NCBI RefSeq assembly: GCF_021869535.1 | Contig: NW_026262659.1 | Span: forward strand, 9,424,001 to 9,488,000 | Direction: 5' to 3' | DNA from: Mytilus californianus | Taxonomy: Eukaryota | DNA: 64,000 nucleotides | In this document: piece by piece, positions 3,201 to 14,110 of the stretch | How positions within the stretch are numbered: position 1 is the first letter of the stretch | Layout of the letters: each line of letters starts with the position of its first letter | Made by a program: the position numbers and the translations under genes | Notes under the pieces: model-generated | Database searches by the model: none | What the model was told of the DNA's origin: nothing | What the model saw: the letters and a program-made list of their open reading frames with translations, nothing else

Positions 3201-3428
3201 TAAATTGAAAAATCAGTTGAAAATGACGTGACTCAAAAGATTGGCACGAAGTACAAAAACAAACAACATAAAGACATAAGACACGAAGTATCGATACAAC
3301 AGTTCTAGCCGTTACTGAAGTCTAGTTCAAAGCCAATAACAACTGTTTAAAATATCAAGTTGAACTAGACTAAAGTTTGGTTGCTATCTCAATGACGTAA
3401 ACCATGTATACGCCATATATCTCCTTTA

Positions 3429-4005
3429 AAAAAATGAAAACAACATGTTATAAATTTCATGCATCTGAGGCGCTTTTCTGGATTGACCGTCATCGGGAAC
3501 GTTCAAAGCCGAATATTTGAAAGCCAATGATGTATAAGAACTGAAACAGTTGAAGAGCTATATGGCAAAAAAGTATCTAAAAACTAGCCAAATCCATCTA
3601 AGGTGAACTTTGCCTGAGAGAGCCGAAACCTTAGTTCCTTTATAATTTCAAAATTTATTAACGGACAATTTTCCAAAGGTTTGTTATAAATCATGTCAGT
3701 ACTGAGGTACTGAGCTGATGAAACCCTCGGGGACTGATAGTCCACCAGGAGGGGTATCGACCCAGTCCTGAAAAAAATGAAAACAACACGTTATAAATTT
3801 CTTGCGTCCGAACCGCTTTTCTGGATTTAACTTCATCAGGAACGCTCAAAGCCGAATATTTGAAAGCAAAGGATGTATAAGAACCGAAACAGTTGAGCTA
3901 TATGACAAAAAAAGTACATAAAATAGCCAAATCCCTTTAAGGTCAACTTTGTCTAAGGGAGTGGTTTAGTTTCTTTATAATTTCAAAATTTATAAACAGA
4001 TAATT
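3429..4005. repeat. Tandem duplication (period about 343 bp) of a dispersed repeat unit
   Basis: aaaaaaatgaaaacaacaYgttataaatttc...caaagccgaatatttgaaagc starts at about 3429 and again at about 3772; a degraded related segment lies near 48185-48330. Confidence 0.75.
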
Positions 4006-4468
4006 TAATGTTAGTTTAAAAAATATTAAACGACATCATAACTCTATATCCTTGTTTGTAAATATAATCACACAAGAAGAAAATGTAAGATGCGATTTCT
4101 TTCCTGCCATCTCTGGAAAATTATGTTGCATTTCATTACAAAACATGTATTCTTGGCAAATTGTAAACACGTAGTTGTCCATCATGCATTGCGACTCATT
4201 CAATGAATTTGTCAATGACCCAATATTAAGTTAACAAACAATTATATTGTCGGGAACAATAGTGTGCCCGTAACAAGTAATGTATTCGACCCGTTTAACC
4301 CCTCTATATTCTGTCTGTGCCGATGGCAGGTCAGGTGCCTGTAATCTGTGAATGTCATTGGTTTCTGTCAGTTATATGTGTTTTCTGTTTGATTGTTCTG
4401 TCATGCAACATGTCTTTGGTTTTTTTTTTTGTAATTTAACATGTTTAAGGGCATTTTATAGCTGACTA

Positions 4469-5334
4469 TGAGATGAATATAGTTCACCTGTTTTATTTTA
4501 CTAGGGTTCAACTTAGCATTACTTTTATCAAGCTGAAACATTGTAATACGAACTCGTTTAGTTTGAAAATTGAATGGTTGTCTACTATGGGTTTTGTTTT
4601 GTTTACATTGCTATGGAAATTTATAACATTTAGAATCAGGAACGGACAGATTGTGGTTAGCAAACCCGGAAATATTCCGATCGGTAGTTGTAAAAATAAG
4701 GGCCGTCATTCAAACGTTTTAGCAATAAGGGTTAGGTATTCTATAAACACGCATAGGAATAAGATATTTGGTATCGTCCAAAGTAAATGGTATGGTCCAA
4801 AACCTAGTATAAAACCTGATGCGCTGTCAGAATAAGGGTCGCTTAATGGATATTCCAGACGTCTCAAAGAAGCAAAAAGGTAATTATATAATTATTTACA
4901 CTTTATAAAATATTAAATAGATTCTGGATAAGAATCTATCTGCGTACCTGAATGAGGTTGTAGGGATATTAAAAGTTGTACATACGCACCGGGTAATAGG
5001 TGCATAGGCGACTGTGCGGTAATAGTGCACGGGTAAATATGTGCACTGGCTAAGCAGTGCACAGGCGGATTAGGTCAGATAGTGCACAGGCGAAACAAGT
5101 CAGATAGTGCACAGGATAGTAGTGCATAGGTAGAATACAGCATAGTTTTGGATAGTGCATAGGTTAGCACTGATTGCTACTGGACACATAAGGTCTGTGC
5201 AACACATTGCTTGGTTGGTGATAGAGGCCAAATTAACAAGTTAAAGATCGATATCTAAGAGACGGTGTATCTTCCAATATCCAGGGGTAAACTCTGGTAC
5301 GATACCCATAAGTCACTACACCGAGTACGTGACA
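4469..5334 (+). repeat. 5' LTR
   Basis: TGAGATGAATATAG...GAGTACGTGACA; near-identical to 8428-9311; contains an internal gtgcaYagg mini-array at about 4995-5165. Confidence 0.95.
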
Positions 5335-5340
5335 TAATTT

Positions 5341-5358
5341 TGGTGGCAGCGGTGGGAT
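5341..5358 (+). promoter_or_regulatory. Primer binding site complementary to the tRNA-Leu 3' end
   Basis: TGGTGGCAGCGGTGGGAT, 6 nt after the 5' LTR, is the complement of ATCCCACCGCTGCCA+CCA, the 3' end of metazoan tRNA-Leu(AAG/TAG) (sequence recalled, not searched). Confidence 0.85.
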
Positions 5359-5388
5359 ATTGGTAAGTGCACCGATAATTGAATAAAT

Positions 5389-6738
5389 ATGGATGATTTA
5401 CAACAGCATATAAGTACGCTAGAGGAAGAGGTTAAGCAAAGTAGGGAGAAGTTGAGACAAACTCAAAACCCTTGGCTTTTGACACAACAACACTCTACCC
5501 CAAAAGTGCAACCTAGAAACCTGACAGATTCTGGTATTGTTCAGACGAGGCGCACCAATTTCGGCGATGTCACAGAGCGCACAGTCCAAACACAGCTTCA
5601 TCGAGCTGATGATGCTCCAACATTGTTTGGACCTTACATAAGTGAGCAAGGCCCGGCAGTCCGTCCTAAGCAAGTGCAATACAACACAACTAGCGCCGCA
5701 CCCTGTACCAGTAGCGGAGGTTCAGTGGAGATTTCTCCTATCTTAAGATATAACCAAAGGAATGCAAGACAGGTTGTCAATAACCAGGAAAAAGTACACA
5801 CGCCAGGAAAGAATACAAGGAAAGAAATCAAACTGGCCAATATATTAGTAACAGAGGTTATTACGCGTTTCGGCGTGCCTACTGTAGTTCACTCAGACCA
5901 AGGCGCGCAGTTTGAGAGCGAATTATTTCAAGAAATGTGTCAGTTATTACAGATAGACAAGACTAGAACCACGCAGTGTGACGGAATGATAGAGAGATTT
6001 AATGGCACATTGGCAAAAATGTTGACTGCTTATGTTGATGAACACCATTCCAATTGGGATTGCTTACTGCCCTACGTTATGATGGCATATAGATCAGCTC
6101 AACATGAGACCACAGGATGTACGCCTAATCGCATGATGTTAGGTCGCGAAGTTGCTACACCTGTGGACCTTATGTACGAGGTACCTGATTATTTAAAGAA
6201 AATTCCACAAAACAAATGGGCGTGGGAACTTCAAGAACGAATGGAAGAAGCTCACCACTTTGTTAGAAAACATGTAGGACAGGAAATGTTGCGTCAGAAA
6301 AAGTATTATGACAAACAGTTAAACTGGAGCAAGTTTAGGAAAGACGACCAAGTATATGTATTCTTTCCAATTCGAAAAGCTGGTCATTCTCCCAAATTTA
6401 CATCCTACTGGCGTGGTCCTTTTCGAGTACTCAAAGAATACTCAGATGTTAACTATCTCATTAACTGTGGTAGGCGTGGTCGACCACAGGTTATACATGT
6501 AGATAGAATGAGGTTGTACAAGGGCCAACTTCTGAGAGGAGAAACAGAGATGAACGAAAACGAAAATCAAGATGATACTTTTGAGCCGGAAAGTGTGGTG
6601 CCCGAAATTTCTAATGATGAGCCTGATAGTGCGGGCAACATTGTTGATCAAAGTGATTCAAGGGATAAATCAGACTACAAAGGGCGTCCACACCGGGTTA
6701 CCAAGCAGCCGGCATTGCTGCATGAGTTTGTTAGATAA
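5389..6738 (+). pseudogene. In-frame fusion of gag N-terminus to the C-terminal two-thirds of Gypsy integrase
   Basis: Coiled-coil gag-like start (MDDLQQHISTLEEEVKQSREKL) joins directly to the rve core RFGVPTVVHSDQGAQFES...DGMIERFNGTL and a C-terminal YWRGPFRV motif; the HHCC zinc finger and first catalytic Asp are missing. Confidence 0.9.
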
Positions 6739-6875
6739 TGTGGATCGCATTGTCGTATATATATTCTTTATCATGTACTAAAATATATAAATAAATATAG
6801 ATATGTATATAAAGTTAATTTCTACAGAATATGCCGACAAAAGTTATTGCGTTATTTTTATTTTCTTTTGCAGAA

Positions 6876-7616
6876 ATGGTGAAGACAAAAGTTACAGTAA
6901 GGAATAGACAGGACTGGTGCTGCCATTTCTGTAATACAGATTATAAAACTGAGGCTGCATGGGATGTACACACGCTCAAATGTGCAAAAGAAAAGAGAGA
7001 AAAGGAAAAGTTTCGGTGCACAGAGTCTGGGTGTAATTATGCTTCGGCAAGAAAACAGGATTTAAACAGACATAGGAAAAGAGTTCATGGTCTAGGGAAA
7101 GCTCTAGAGGAGTCAGACTGGGAAACACAGAATCCTGGTGATTTGTTGGATATTATTGATACGCCTGATGATCCGCGAACTGTGCGCAAACCAACCAAAC
7201 CAAACCCAGTAGTAGCTCCTAAAAGGAAGCAGGAACTAATGGACATGTTACAAAAATCAATATCTCCAAAGAAGATTCCCAGAGTGTCGTGCACTGTATC
7301 CACAGCGCCAGCTTCAGTCGTTAGTGACAGTAGTGGTTCAGAATCTGACGATTCCACTATTTTCAGTACAGTCTGGACGGCTACCCCAGTTGCATCAGAG
7401 AGCTCCGGTATTGTACCAAGCTCAATCTCGCCAAATATTGTAGTTTCAACACCTATAGTGAGTGCACCAATGCCAATACTACCTTTTTCTGTGGACAATC
7501 GCACTCAAACTGAAAGATTGAGCCATCATCATCGCCTCCGACGTAAACGTCATTTCATTCACAATCAGGGCATTCTTGTCTCTGAAACAGAGGAAGAGGA
7601 ATGGGATGATTTTTAG
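6876..7616 (+). CDS. Extra retrotransposon ORF with two C2H2-type zinc fingers
   Basis: CHFC...HTLKC and CTESGCNYASARKQDLNRHRKRVH fingers, a Ser/Pro-rich middle and an acidic tail (ETEEEEWDDF). A splice acceptor ttttcttttgcag sits 2 nt before the ATG at 6876 (the ORF track starts at 6831). Confidence 0.75.
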   Translation: MVKTKVTVRNRQDWCCHFCNTDYKTEAAWDVHTLKCAKEKREKEKFRCTESGCNYASARKQDLNRHRKRVHGLGKALEESDWETQNPGDLLDIIDTPDDPRTVRKPTKPNPVVAPKRKQELMDMLQKSISPKKIPRVSCTVSTAPASVVSDSSGSESDDSTIFSTVWTATPVASESSGIVPSSISPNIVVSTPIVSAPMPILPFSVDNRTQTERLSHHHRLRRKRHFIHNQGILVSETEEEEWDDF

Positions 7617-7847
7617 AACACTATCTTTTTGACACACATACCAACCAGAGATGTTGAAGGTAGTTATCAGACAGTGCCGTTAATTAAGTGCATGTCATAA
7701 GCAGGAAGCTGGACGTTTTATGAGTTATGAGGACACTTAATTATAGAAGTTGTTTTGGAGTCTATATTAACAGACAGTTTTATTTCTAATTAAAAGTGAG
7801 GGAATCACTACTATAAATGTTATTTTGTTGTATATTTTAATATGTAT

Positions 7848-7980
7848 GTCCGTCGGATGGGGACGTTAAATCCGAGGTCCCGTGTTCATGGAGTACCACG
7901 CTTTGTGCACGTTAAAGATCCCTCTTAACAAACTCTTTGAGTGGTCCATAAGTGGCTGGTTGTTAGGCAAAATTATTTCT
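7848..7980 (+). mobile_element. SINE core (Deu/Nin-like) fragment inside the LTR element
   Basis: gtcggatggggacgttaaatccgaggtcc...cacgttaaagatccc resembles the Deu-domain consensus as recalled (cggatgagacgtaaaaccgaggtcc...ttaaagatccc). Confidence 0.5.
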
Positions 7981-8413
7981 TACCGGTTTTGGCTTGTTGA
8001 TGTTTTCAGTGGTTTTCAAATGTATAATTTGGTTTGTTGGTTTTCATGGTTATAAATTGATTGCTCAAAAATCTGTCTGCATGCATATTTGAAAAACAGA
8101 TGTAAAATGACTTGAGGGTACTTAGGATAAAGTTGATTTATTTAAGTTGATGCACATGTTAAATCAGTCCTCCAATGTTAAGACAATAGTATACAGTTGG
8201 TTGGGAATCTTGTCATGTCGGGTAGATCATACATCTACGAGTTGTTCTAGTGGTTAGTTACTGAAGAAGTACCAGTTGTTTAATGATATTTATATTTGTG
8301 GATTTTGAATGACATGGCTTGAGGCAATACCCGGATAGAGTTTGGGACTGAAAAATGTCCACTTGATGTAGATGTGTTCAATTGATATCGATAAATGCGG
8401 GGACGCATTTCCT

Positions 8414-8427
8414 GGAGGCGTGGGTAA
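8414..8427 (+). promoter_or_regulatory. Polypurine tract
   Basis: GGAGGCGTGGGTAA lies immediately before the TG of the 3' LTR. Confidence 0.7.
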
Positions 8428-9311
8428 TGTGATGAATATAGTTCACCTATTTTATTTTACTACTAAGGGTTCAACTTAGTATTACTTTTATCAAGCTGAA
8501 ACATTGTTATACGAACTCGTTTAGTTTGAAAATTGAATGGTTGTCTACTATGGATTTTGTTTTGTTAACATTGCTATGGAAATTTATAACATTTAGAATC
8601 AGGAACGGACAGATTGTGGTTAGCAAACCCGGAAATATTCCGATCGGTAGTTGTAAAAATAAGGGCCGTCATTCAAACGTTTTAGCAATAAGGGTTAGGT
8701 ATTCTATAAACACGCATAGGAATAAGATATTTGGTATCGTCCAAAGTAAATGGTATGGTCCAAAACCTAGTATAAAACCTGATGCGCTGTCAGAATAAGG
8801 GTCGCTTAATGGATATTCCAGACGTCTCAAAGAAGCAAAAAGGTAATTAAATAATTATTTACACTTTATGAAATATTAAATAGATTCTGAATAAGAATTT
8901 ATCTGCGTATCTGAATAAGGTTGTAGGGATATTAAAAGTTGTAAATACGCACCGGGTAACAGGTGCATAGACGACTGTGCGGTAATAGTGCACGGGTAAA
9001 TACGTGCACTGGTTAAACAGTGCACAGGCAGATCAGGTCAAATAGTGCACAGGCGGAACAAGTCAGATAGTACACAGGATAGCGGTGCACAGGATAGTAG
9101 TGCATAGGTAGAATACAGCATAGTTTTGGATAGTGCATAGGTTAGCACTGATTGCTATTGGACACATAAGGTCTGTGCAACACATTGCTGGTTGGTGACA
9201 AAGGCCAAATTAACAAGTATAAGATCGATATCTAAGAGACGGTGTATCTTCCAATATCCAGGGGTAAACTCTGGTACGATACCCATAAGTCACTTCACCG
9301 AGTACGTGACA
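8428..9311 (+). repeat. 3' LTR
   Basis: TGTGATGAATATAG...GAGTACGTGACA; differs from the 5' LTR by scattered substitutions and small indels, including an extra unit of about 14 bp in the gtgcacagg array. Confidence 0.95.
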
Positions 9312-9569
9312 ACTACACGATATGAGTTCGCTCATTTTATGAGGAGCGTACGGTGACCTTTATTTAAATCTACGTAATTTGAATTCTGTTAGATGGTAAT
9401 TTCATTGACATTGGGTAGCATGGCACATCTACTTATTTTATATACAAACACTATCATTTTCCTGATTTACTAAGTTAAACACAATTCAATTAGATTACTA
9501 AAACCAATTGTTTTTACTTGAAATTCTCCTCTTCAAAAACTAAATCATTTTCTTAAGAATTACAATTAC

Positions 9570-13379: not shown

Positions 13380-14110
13380 GACACTTCCAATTTGACATTT
13401 CTAATTTCTTACTTGAATTTTCTCAATTACAACTTGAAAGTGAGAAATGTCTAATTGGAACTGAGAAGTGTCAAGTTAGAATTGGGAAATGTCAGGTTGG
13501 AATTTAGAAATGCCAACTTGGAACAGAGAAGTGTCAACTTGGAAGTGGAAAGACTTGATGTCAAGTTGAAACTGAGAAATTTCAACTTTGAACTGGAAAG
13601 ACTTAGTGTCAAGTTGAAACTGAGAAATGTCAACTTGGAACTGGAAAGTGTCAAGTTTGAAGTGAAAATGTCAACTAGGAAGTTAGAAATACACAATGCT
13701 TCAACTTGGAAGAATGAAATGTCAACTTGAAACTGAGAAATGTCAAGTTTAAACTGATAAATGACAACTTGGAACTAAGAATTGTCAAGTTGAACTGGAA
13801 AGTGTCAAGTTGAAACTGAGAAATGTCAACTTAAAACTGGAAAGTGTCAAGTTGGAAGTGAAAATGTCTGCTTAGAAGTTAGAAATATCCGTTTGGAAGT
13901 TAGAAATGTCAACTTATAACTGAGAAATGACAATTTTGAAATGAGAAATGTCGAGTTGGAAAAGAGAAATTTCAACTTGGAACAAAGAAGTGTCAAGTTG
14001 AAATTGAGAAATATCCATTTCAGTTTTGTCGCCGAAAAAGCTACAAGATCACAGACGTACCTAACTTTGAACTGAGAAATGTCAAGTTGGAAAGAAAAAT
14101 GTTAAATTGA
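13380..14110. repeat. Degenerate tandem repeat with about 21-bp period (gaaatgtcaagttgaaactga-like)
   Basis: Dozens of variants of gaaa(t/g)tgtcaa(g/c)ttg(g/a)aactga; located in gene A intron 3. Confidence 0.9.

What the first reader, a model, noticed from the sequence alone, without database searches (positions are those of the whole stretch)
6860..7616. Gypsy LTR element carries an intact extra C2H2 zinc-finger gene at the env position, with its own splice acceptor
The ORF lies between pol and the 3' LTR, is open for about 247 codons although pol is destroyed, has two zinc fingers, a Ser/Pro-rich linker and an acidic C-terminus (transcription-factor-like layout), and is preceded by a strong acceptor, consistent with a spliced subgenomic RNA as for env. 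Established: Gypsy elements normally encode gag/pol with or without env. Inference: an element-encoded DNA/RNA-binding accessory factor (self-regulation, anti-silencing or targeting) retained by a non-autonomous family.
Basis: partly seen in the sequence, partly recalled or inferred. Interest (0 to 1): 0.7.

Follow-up and report, generated by a model that had tools for sequence, protein, structure and literature searches.

The report
Histone-tail-like zinc-finger gene in bivalve retrotransposons
A whole lineage of jumping genes in a mussel-like genome carries an extra, selection-maintained zinc-finger gene whose protein begins like the tail of histone H3, so these elements likely make their own factor that would engage the host's gene-silencing machinery.

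Summary
It is not kept by a non-autonomous family: this copy just has a one-off 3.65-kb deletion, and its open frame is unremarkable (P about 0.26 under neutrality). The gene belongs to an autonomous Gypsy clade. It follows integrase in 37 of 50 clade loci and 0 of 20 outgroup loci, sits in young copies with unbroken gag-pol, and has dN/dS 0.12-0.42 between subfamilies. An acceptor lies just before the ATG in 9 of 9 families (background 15%); no spliced read was found. Relatives occur in scallops and oysters. Finger 1 is C2HC, finger 2 a DNA-binding-type C2H2. New here: the N-terminus matches histone H3 residues 1-9 in register (T3, K4, T6, R8, K9), though H3's R2 is never kept, and an LC8-type motif lies near the C-terminus. 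Likely role: an element-encoded chromatin regulator, VANC-like; untested. Ten paper searches and this scan's notes showed no earlier description; Repbase was not searchable.

The parts
4465..4468 (+). 5' target-site duplication (ACTA)
   Evidence: sequence; same four bases at 9312-9315
4469..5334 (+). 5' LTR (TG...CA)
5000..5163 (+). six copies of a 9-bp GTGCAYAGG motif in the LTR; candidate target of finger 2 (speculative)
   Evidence: 6 in the 5' LTR, 5 in the 3' LTR, 0 elsewhere in the window; top 7-mer count 5 only equals the maximum of 200 Markov resamples
5341..5357 (+). primer-binding site for tRNA-Leu(UAG)
5360..5368 (+). consensus-like splice donor (GT at 5363) just after the primer site; candidate partner of the 6874 acceptor; a second candidate lies at 4880 in the LTR
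   Evidence: present in all 8 other family copies with a readable primer site, ORF-less copies included; use not shown
5389..6738 (+). gag N-terminus fused in frame to the integrase core and C-terminus by a 3.65-kb deletion (junction about 5831-5841)
6857..6873 (+). polypyrimidine tract and AG acceptor; exon would start at 6874
6876..7616 (+). ORF2, 246-aa accessory zinc-finger protein (P0001)
6879..6905 (+). N-terminal residues 2-10, in register with histone H3 1-9; this copy matches 4 of 9 (T3, K4, T6, R8) and lacks K9
6921..6983 (+). finger 1, C2HC type, acidic helix (predicted not to bind DNA)
7017..7088 (+). finger 2, C2H2 type, basic recognition helix with Arg at +6 in 44 of 44 relatives
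7185..7202 (+). conserved R-K-x-T-x-P motif followed by a basic patch (NLS-like, inferred)
   Evidence: R 42, K 38, T 40, P 40 of 44
7494..7514 (+). LC8/DYNLL-type TQT anchor motif, residues 207-213
   Evidence: the complex model docked a different segment
7524..7610 (+). predicted C-terminal beta-hairpin, residues 217-245, basic then acidic strand
   Evidence: pLDDT about 76-90; not folded or searched alone
7617..8427 (+). 3' untranslated region; part is shared with families whose ORF2 is only about 32% identical
8428..9311 (+). 3' LTR (TG...CA)
9312..9315 (+). 3' target-site duplication (ACTA)
   Evidence: sequence

Best explanation
ORF2 is an old, selection-maintained accessory gene of an autonomous Gypsy clade, likely read from a spliced RNA, whose protein is predicted to bind the element's DNA through finger 2 and would use its histone-H3-like N-terminal tail to recruit or decoy host chromatin readers and writers, likely keeping the element transcribable. 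Shown: clade-wide position after integrase, presence in young copies with unbroken gag-pol, purifying selection, conserved acceptor, conserved motifs. Inferred, with rough odds: splicing (0.85); nuclear DNA-binding regulator (0.7); Met removal giving a free H3-like N-terminus that binds chromatin factors (0.45); LC8-driven dimerisation compensating for a single DNA-binding finger (0.5); activation rather than self-repression (0.6). The window copy is a deleted, ageing member whose ORF happens to be unbroken.
For: Linkage: 25 of 28 ORF2 hits in the genome have an integrase-like hit in the same 3.2-kb locus, 23 of them substantial and upstream on the same strand. Among 70 loci picked by integrase alone, ORF2 (25 bits or more) follows in 37 of 50 rows of one clade (support 99/99) and 0 of 20 outside. 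Five copies have LTRs 99.4-100% identical, one open gag-pol of 1675-1723 codons and an open ORF2. ORF2 and integrase trees of 8 families share two groups and do not conflict at supported nodes. Selection: all 7 pairs with dS of 0.19 or more give dN/dS 0.12-0.42 with intervals below 1. Acceptor within 15 nt of the ATG in 9 of 9 families, against 347 of 2259 background ATGs. N-terminus, 45 of 60 family proteins with a locatable Met: T3 36, K4 41, T6 41, R8 29, K9 32, and a small first residue in 45 of 45. The host's H3 1-9 scores 13.6 against -0.2 for the next H3 window; P = 9e-6 on whole-protein composition, 9e-4 on N-terminal composition; 10 of 22,680 letter orderings score as high. Four families found through integrase match 18 of 20 prespecified positions. 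Finger 2 has Arg at +6 in 44 of 44 and mean helix charge +4.0, against -1.7 for finger 1. LC8-type anchor in 30 of 40 full-length members, shuffles mean 8.6, maximum 17. LC8 complex model: score 0.62, best of 3 controls 0.02; that mark was reached by 51 of 78 solved complexes and 2 of 108 mismatched pairs; runs agree in at least 70% of contacts, partner pLDDT 45-47 (see caveat).
Against: H3's R2 is kept in 0 of 45, so the published N-terminal-mimic definition (PMC8166343) is not met. Position 7 is Pro in 29 of 45, which gives a TPRK that could equally be a CDK site or basic DNA-binding arm (recalled). The H3 match was spotted by eye, so the P-values are post hoc, and the members are homologues: one event, not 45. 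A fifth integrase-found family, left out of the 18-of-20 count because its copies are broken, matches 3 of 5 positions. The window's copy lacks K9. No LTR-to-acceptor joint was seen in 8 run-layings; the only raw RNA run gave 3 and 9 reads. The donor after the primer site is not seen at that place in other families. The LC8 model docked residues 226-237, not the TQT motif at 210-212, and may reflect memory of solved LC8-peptide complexes. The gene is dispensable in cis: 13 of 50 clade rows lack it, five dispersed sister copies share one deletion of it, and a seven-row family has none. The 9 close pairs give dN/dS 0.50-1.02 with intervals spanning 1. Repeated LTR motifs exceed the null maximum in only 3 of the 7 ORF2-family LTRs tested.
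Confidence: 0.45

Rival explanations
1. ORF2 is an element-encoded transcription regulator (transactivator or self-repressor), but its N-terminus is only a basic DNA-binding arm, nuclear-import signal or CDK-type site; the likeness to H3 is coincidence.
For: R2 in 0 of 45 and Pro at position 7 in 29 of 45. Single-finger proteins often use adjacent basic arms (recalled). The resemblance was found post hoc. All linkage, selection and finger-2 evidence fits this equally.
Against: The motif is fixed at the exact N-terminus behind a Met-removable residue in 45 of 45, and T3, K4 and T6 are better kept (36-41 of 45) than the Pro. Ala replaces Pro in several families, one member reaching 8 of 9 identities to H3. 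An NLS-like basic patch exists separately after residue 104.
Confidence: 0.35
2. ORF2 works on the RNA or particle: it binds genomic RNA or the integration complex and links it to LC8/dynein or to chromatin for transport or target-site choice.
For: LC8-type anchor in 30 of 40; weak Pfam hits to RNA-binding finger types in some members (below cut-off); C2HC finger 1 is acidic and suits protein binding.
Against: Finger 2 has the classical DNA-recognition pattern and its best sequence matches are DNA-binding fingers. ORF-less lineages still spread. LC8 binding often means dimerisation rather than transport (recalled).
Confidence: 0.13
3. The ORF is a one-off captured host exon or neutral passenger, intact by chance.
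For: Its openness in this copy is compatible with neutrality (P = 0.26); close copies are frameshifted or deleted; public annotation calls some relatives 'REST-like' host genes.
Against: Present in at least nine families of one clade, dN/dS 0.12-0.42, concordant trees. The 'REST-like' models are multi-copy near-identical proteins on different scaffolds, and one oyster model is fused to an integrase C-terminus.
Confidence: 0.02
4. ORF2 is an env substitute or infectivity factor, like sORF2 of MDG1-group elements.
For: Env position and acceptor; some Lepidopteran sORF2 genes lie downstream of pol (PMC11952523, passage).
Against: No signal peptide or hydrophobic segment is visible in the sequence; the model shows two fingers, disorder and a hairpin.
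Confidence: 0.02

Closest known systems
Ty3/Gypsy (Metaviridae) LTR retrotransposons with an extra gene after pol (errantivirus env; PMC13524379, passages)
   Same: LTRs, tRNA primer site, gag-PR-RT-RH-IN order, third gene between pol and the 3' LTR with an acceptor
   Different: The gene is a soluble two-finger protein, not a fusogen; that paper's text has no 'zinc finger'. Named clade (MolGy, Mag and others; PMC6238403) not assigned.
VANC21/VANC6 anti-silencing proteins of Arabidopsis VANDAL transposons (PMC6719617, passages)
   Same: TE-encoded accessory protein; proposed family-specific action through short repeated motifs in the element
   Different: DNA transposon of plants; acts on DNA methylation; no homology tested; anti-silencing by ORF2 is untested
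H3 N-terminal mimicry proteins, H3TMs (PMC8166343, abstract and passages)
   Same: Met-removable first residue and Lys at position 4 at the true N-terminus of a zinc-finger protein
   Different: R2 is absent; the match instead extends to T6, R8 and K9; encoded by a mobile element, not the host
SNAG-domain factors such as SNAIL (PMC13316430, abstract start in a search listing)
   Same: N-terminal histone-like peptide plus C2H2 fingers, a hook-and-finger layout
   Different: Different N-terminal sequence; fingers are N-proximal; partner unknown; LSD1 binding not tested
Viral histone mimics: influenza NS1, adenovirus protein VII, bracovirus H4 (PMC6028506, passages)
   Same: A genetic parasite carrying an H3-like short motif
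   Different: Those passages name no transposon case ('transpos' 0 occurrences); here the motif is N-terminal, longer and vertically conserved
LC8/DYNLL client proteins with a TQT anchor (PMC6607443, passages)
   Same: TQT anchor with Asp at -4 and Glu at +2 in a disordered region
   Different: Many anchor peptides do not bind; the model here chose another segment

Membership tests
Ty3/Gypsy LTR retrotransposon | LTRs with TG...CA ends and a 4-6 bp target-site duplication | tested here: met
Ty3/Gypsy LTR retrotransposon | tRNA primer-binding site after the 5' LTR | tested here: met
   tRNA-Leu(UAG)
Ty3/Gypsy LTR retrotransposon | gag-PR-RT-RH-IN domain order | tested here: met
   Pfam on two full-length relatives; the window copy keeps only the gag start and IN
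Named Gypsy clade (MolGy1-16, Mag A/B/C, CsRN1, Cigr-1) | RT/RH grouping with reference elements | not testable with these tools
env-carrying errantivirus | envelope glycoprotein with signal peptide and transmembrane segment after pol | tested here: not met
   sequence and model
Non-autonomous LTR family | several dispersed copies sharing the same internal deletion | tested here: not met
   0 of 10 other fetched family copies share it; genome searches give lower bounds
Classical C2H2 zinc finger | C-x2-4-C-x12-H-x3-5-H in finger 2 | tested here: met
Classical C2H2 zinc finger | the same pattern in finger 1 | tested here: not met
   last ligand is Cys in 44 of 44
H3TM (iM-Z1-R2-X3-K4) | small residue after the initiator Met | tested here: met
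   45 of 45 are A, V, P, T or G; true start not shown by RNA
H3TM (iM-Z1-R2-X3-K4) | Arg at position 2 | tested here: not met
   0 of 45
H3TM (iM-Z1-R2-X3-K4) | Lys at position 4 | tested here: met
   41 of 45
H3TM (iM-Z1-R2-X3-K4) | binding of histone readers or modification by histone enzymes | not testable with these tools
   needs peptide assays
LC8 client | TQT-type anchor in a disordered region | tested here: met
   30 of 40; low-pLDDT region
LC8 client | binding through that anchor | tested here: inconclusive
   model passed its mark but used residues 226-237
TE-encoded anti-silencing factor (VANC-like) | relieves silencing of its own family | not testable with these tools
   no functional data

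The most novel reading that the evidence does not exclude
An animal LTR-retrotransposon clade, spread across mussels, scallops and oysters, encodes its own DNA-targeted histone-H3 mimic: a zinc-finger protein whose free N-terminus presents K4 and K9 equivalents to host chromatin enzymes and so counteracts silencing of the element. It would be a histone mimic encoded by a transposon, which my searches did not find described, and many bivalve 'REST-like' gene models would be transposon genes.
Probability: 0.4. Interest if true: 0.9.

Novelty: new variant of a known kind. Interest (0 to 1): 0.74.

Why it matters
Few transposon-encoded counter-silencing proteins are known, the clearest being plant VANC (PMC6719617). 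A conserved accessory gene with an H3-like tail in an active animal LTR clade gives a direct, peptide-level test of whether retrotransposons fight chromatin silencing by histone mimicry, as viruses do. Natural ORF-less sister lineages offer a built-in comparison. It also flags multi-copy bivalve 'REST-like' or 'uncharacterized' RefSeq models as probable element genes. The finding that 19 of 20 outgroup Gypsy loci carry other long ORFs after pol suggests that accessory regulators are common and overlooked in mollusc Gypsy elements.

Tried and rejected
Spliced reads: the window element and a young relative were each laid with 4 runs. No joint to the ORF2 acceptor appeared; contig runs may be DNA and the raw RNA run had almost no reads, so this is uninformative. 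Loci outside this genome: single-protein scans of genome contigs and metagenome contigs found nothing; alignment-based scans could not be run. ESM Atlas gave no result for P0001 or P0007. Longer fused homologues: none at E 1e-12 (weak evidence). Fold searches of the whole model returned only zinc fingers, no Foldseek match at E 0.001 and best Z 5.3; the C-terminal hairpin was not searched alone, and a UBZ/NEMO-type reading of finger 1 (recalled) is neither supported nor excluded (RAD18 at Z 2.9). Rfam found nothing in 3300-9400. A universal donor after the primer site was rejected. Family-specific LTR repeats as targets gave mixed results (the script stopped early in its last table). 'Selection on this copy', 'non-autonomous family', 'env substitute' and 'captured host exon' were rejected as above. 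The earlier-findings look-ups returned nothing relevant.

Full report
OBSERVATION. The window holds an LTR element at 4469-9311. The LTRs differ at 28 of 865 columns with 3 gaps and are flanked by ACTA on both sides. The primer site at 5341 is complementary to a host tRNA-Leu(UAG). One frame, 5389-6738, joins the start of gag to the integrase; comparison with sister copies shows a single 3.65-kb deletion at about 5831-5841. ORF2 runs from 6876 to 7616 (246 aa) behind an AG at 6872-6873. Finger 1 ends in Cys and finger 2 is C2H2. Named close homologues are from Mytilus. A neutral simulation leaves this frame open in 26% of runs, so its intactness here says little.

THE FAMILY. An LTR search gave 48 matches, and I fetched 10 other elements of the family. 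None has the window's deletion. Five hold ORF2 with frameshifts; four of those share flanks at 98-100% and are duplicates of one insertion. Five dispersed copies share one deletion of ORF2 (window about 6792-7740), also seen in a public contig. So the gene can be lost in cis and the lineage still spreads.

THE CLADE. A search with residues 1-99 gave 28 matches; 25 have an integrase-like hit in the locus, 23 substantial and upstream. To avoid choosing by the finger, I searched by integrase (150 matches listed) and examined 70: the top 30, 20 more from the high-identity group, and 20 outgroup loci picked for long frames. For the first 30 only 1.5 kb downstream was seen. ORF2 at 25 bits or more follows in 37 of 50 rows of one clade (99/99) and 0 of 20 outside, where 7 rows have weak 11-22-bit hits. 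Five copies have LTRs 99.4-100% identical with one open gag-pol and an open ORF2. ORF2 and integrase trees of 8 families share two groups, one of them joining long branches. Pairwise dN/dS (NG86, poorly aligned codons dropped, pairs not independent): 7 of 16 pairs have dS of 0.19 or more and give 0.12-0.42 with intervals below 1; the 9 close pairs give 0.50-1.02, as expected for decay after insertion.

SPLICING. A YAG with at least 8 of 14 pyrimidines lies within 15 nt of the ATG in 9 of 9 families, against 347 of 2259 ATGs elsewhere in the window. I set that threshold after seeing some of the upstream sequences. A consensus-like donor follows the primer site in this family; other families have donor-like sites elsewhere or none. 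No spliced joint was seen, in data too thin to count against it. An in-frame ATG at 6831 lies upstream of the acceptor in this family and could give a longer N-terminus.

WIDER FAMILY. A profile search of 1.84 billion representatives returned many 200-300-aa proteins matching over the full length. Of 148 listed, 60 passed a rule that ignores the N-terminus, although the ranking profile did include it. Named members come from Mytilus, Argopecten, Mizuhopecten, Pecten, Ylistrum, Ostrea, Saccostrea and Pinctada; of 30 looked up, most of the rest carry no name. Pecten and Ostrea clusters hold several near-identical models on different scaffolds, some labelled 'REST-like'. One Saccostrea model begins with an integrase C-terminus (E 9e-8). 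Linkage to pol outside this genome is otherwise not shown.

ANATOMY. The AlphaFold model (44 rows, mean pLDDT 73, pTM 0.34) has two confident fingers, a disordered middle and a C-terminal hairpin. Finger 2 has K/R at -1 (41 of 44), D/N at +3 (40) and R at +6 (44), a DNA-recognition pattern by established knowledge; finger 1's helix is acidic. Further conserved motifs are a QxPG-type motif near 85-88, R-K-x-T-x-P at 104-109 and a TQT-type anchor, found in 30 of 40 full-length members against a shuffle mean of 8.6, which fits the LC8 motif as described in PMC6607443 (passages). A model of host LC8 with residues 196-246 scored 0.62, best of 3 controls 0.02; the mark was reached by 51 of 78 solved complexes and 2 of 108 mismatched pairs; runs agree in at least 70% of contacts and partner pLDDT is 45-47. 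It docked residues 226-237, not the anchor, and LC8-peptide complexes are solved, so this is weak support.

THE N-TERMINUS. Against the host's own H3, the nine residues after the Met match in register: T3 36, K4 41, T6 41, R8 29, K9 32 of 45; 15 of 60 members had no locatable start and were left out. The first residue is always one that allows Met removal (rule from PMC8166343). H3 1-9 is the best of all H3 windows (13.6 against -0.2); none of 67,830 nine-mers in long non-family proteins scores as high. Four families found through integrase match 18 of 20 prespecified positions; a fifth, broken family matches 3 of 5. Six outgroup extra ORFs match 0-2 of 9. Against: R2 is never kept, position 7 is mostly Pro, the comparison is post hoc, and the window's copy lacks K9.

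MECHANISM. I commit to an element-encoded chromatin regulator: a spliced RNA (inferred) yields a protein with a free H3-like tail (inferred) that finger 2 would hold on the element, perhaps as an LC8-bridged dimer, recruiting activating readers or decoying repressive H3K9 machinery. ORF-less lineages would use it in trans or do without. The main rival keeps the regulator and drops the mimicry.

LITERATURE. Ten searches showed no paper describing a zinc-finger accessory gene of mollusc Gypsy elements or a transposon-encoded histone mimic. I read keyword passages of PMC13524379, PMC6238403, PMC12440569, PMC6028506, PMC6607443, PMC10294476, PMC11952523 and PMC6719617, the abstract and passages of PMC8166343, and only a listing for PMC13316430. 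Supplements of PMC6238403 were listed, not read. Repbase, Dfam, GyDB and subscription journals were not searchable and may already note the ORF. CDK/SPKK, UBZ and V-SINE resemblances are recalled, not tested.

VERDICT. A real, conserved accessory gene of an autonomous clade; new variant of a known kind; interest 0.74, with a 0.4 chance of a functional transposon-encoded H3 mimic.

Noticed in passing
L113-L132 (outgroup Gypsy loci, e.g. L114, L116, L119, L125, L126, L131): 19 of 20 outgroup Gypsy loci carry an ATG-started ORF of 100-730 aa after pol. Of 8 scanned, 4 have weak zinc-finger hits and one has a BTB/POZ domain at E 2e-18. Several have acceptor-like sequence before the ATG. These are different protein families from ORF2 and lack the H3-like start.
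   Followed up: partly
window 7820-8427: This part of the 3' UTR is 80-89% identical to that of families whose ORF2 is only about 32% identical, suggesting module exchange. An 80-100-bp core near 7820-7925 recurs in further families and is very deep in public contigs; it resembles a SINE core (recalled, untested; no Rfam hit).
   Followed up: partly
L034-L038, L138, L097/L101/L103/L106/L107/L109/L111: At least three independent ORF2-less lineages inside the clade; one ORF-less copy has LTRs 98.5% identical.
   Followed up: partly
G000:C35:21.92-22.04 Mb (L030-L033): Four copies of one insertion with 98-100% identical flanks, about 37-38 kb apart: a tandem segmental duplication.
   Followed up: partly
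window 4449-4835 and 8442-8798: Both LTRs hold a stop-free frame of 118-128 codons; probably chance.
   Followed up: no
window 3428-3960: Two diverged copies of a roughly 340-bp unit just upstream of the element, with a CTGATGA-containing hairpin near 3714; no Rfam match.
   Followed up: partly
window 13390-14106: Array of a 21-bp unit with stop-free frames on both strands.
   Followed up: no
L149 (G000:C86:2.09-2.14 Mb): Tandem array with a 1300-bp period, at least 41 units, carrying tRNA-Leu(UAG), the primer type of this clade.
   Followed up: partly
G000 contig ends, e.g. C106, C110, C121, C97-C99: Many identical short histone-fold hits (profile 87-121) with one TGA cluster near contig ends, suggesting a subtelomeric repeat carrying a histone fragment.
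   Followed up: no
public proteins P0111, P0121, P0144, P0159: Gene models labelled 'RE1-silencing transcription factor-like' or 'ZNF423' in oysters, a scallop and a mussel belong to the ORF2 family and are probably element genes.
   Followed up: partly
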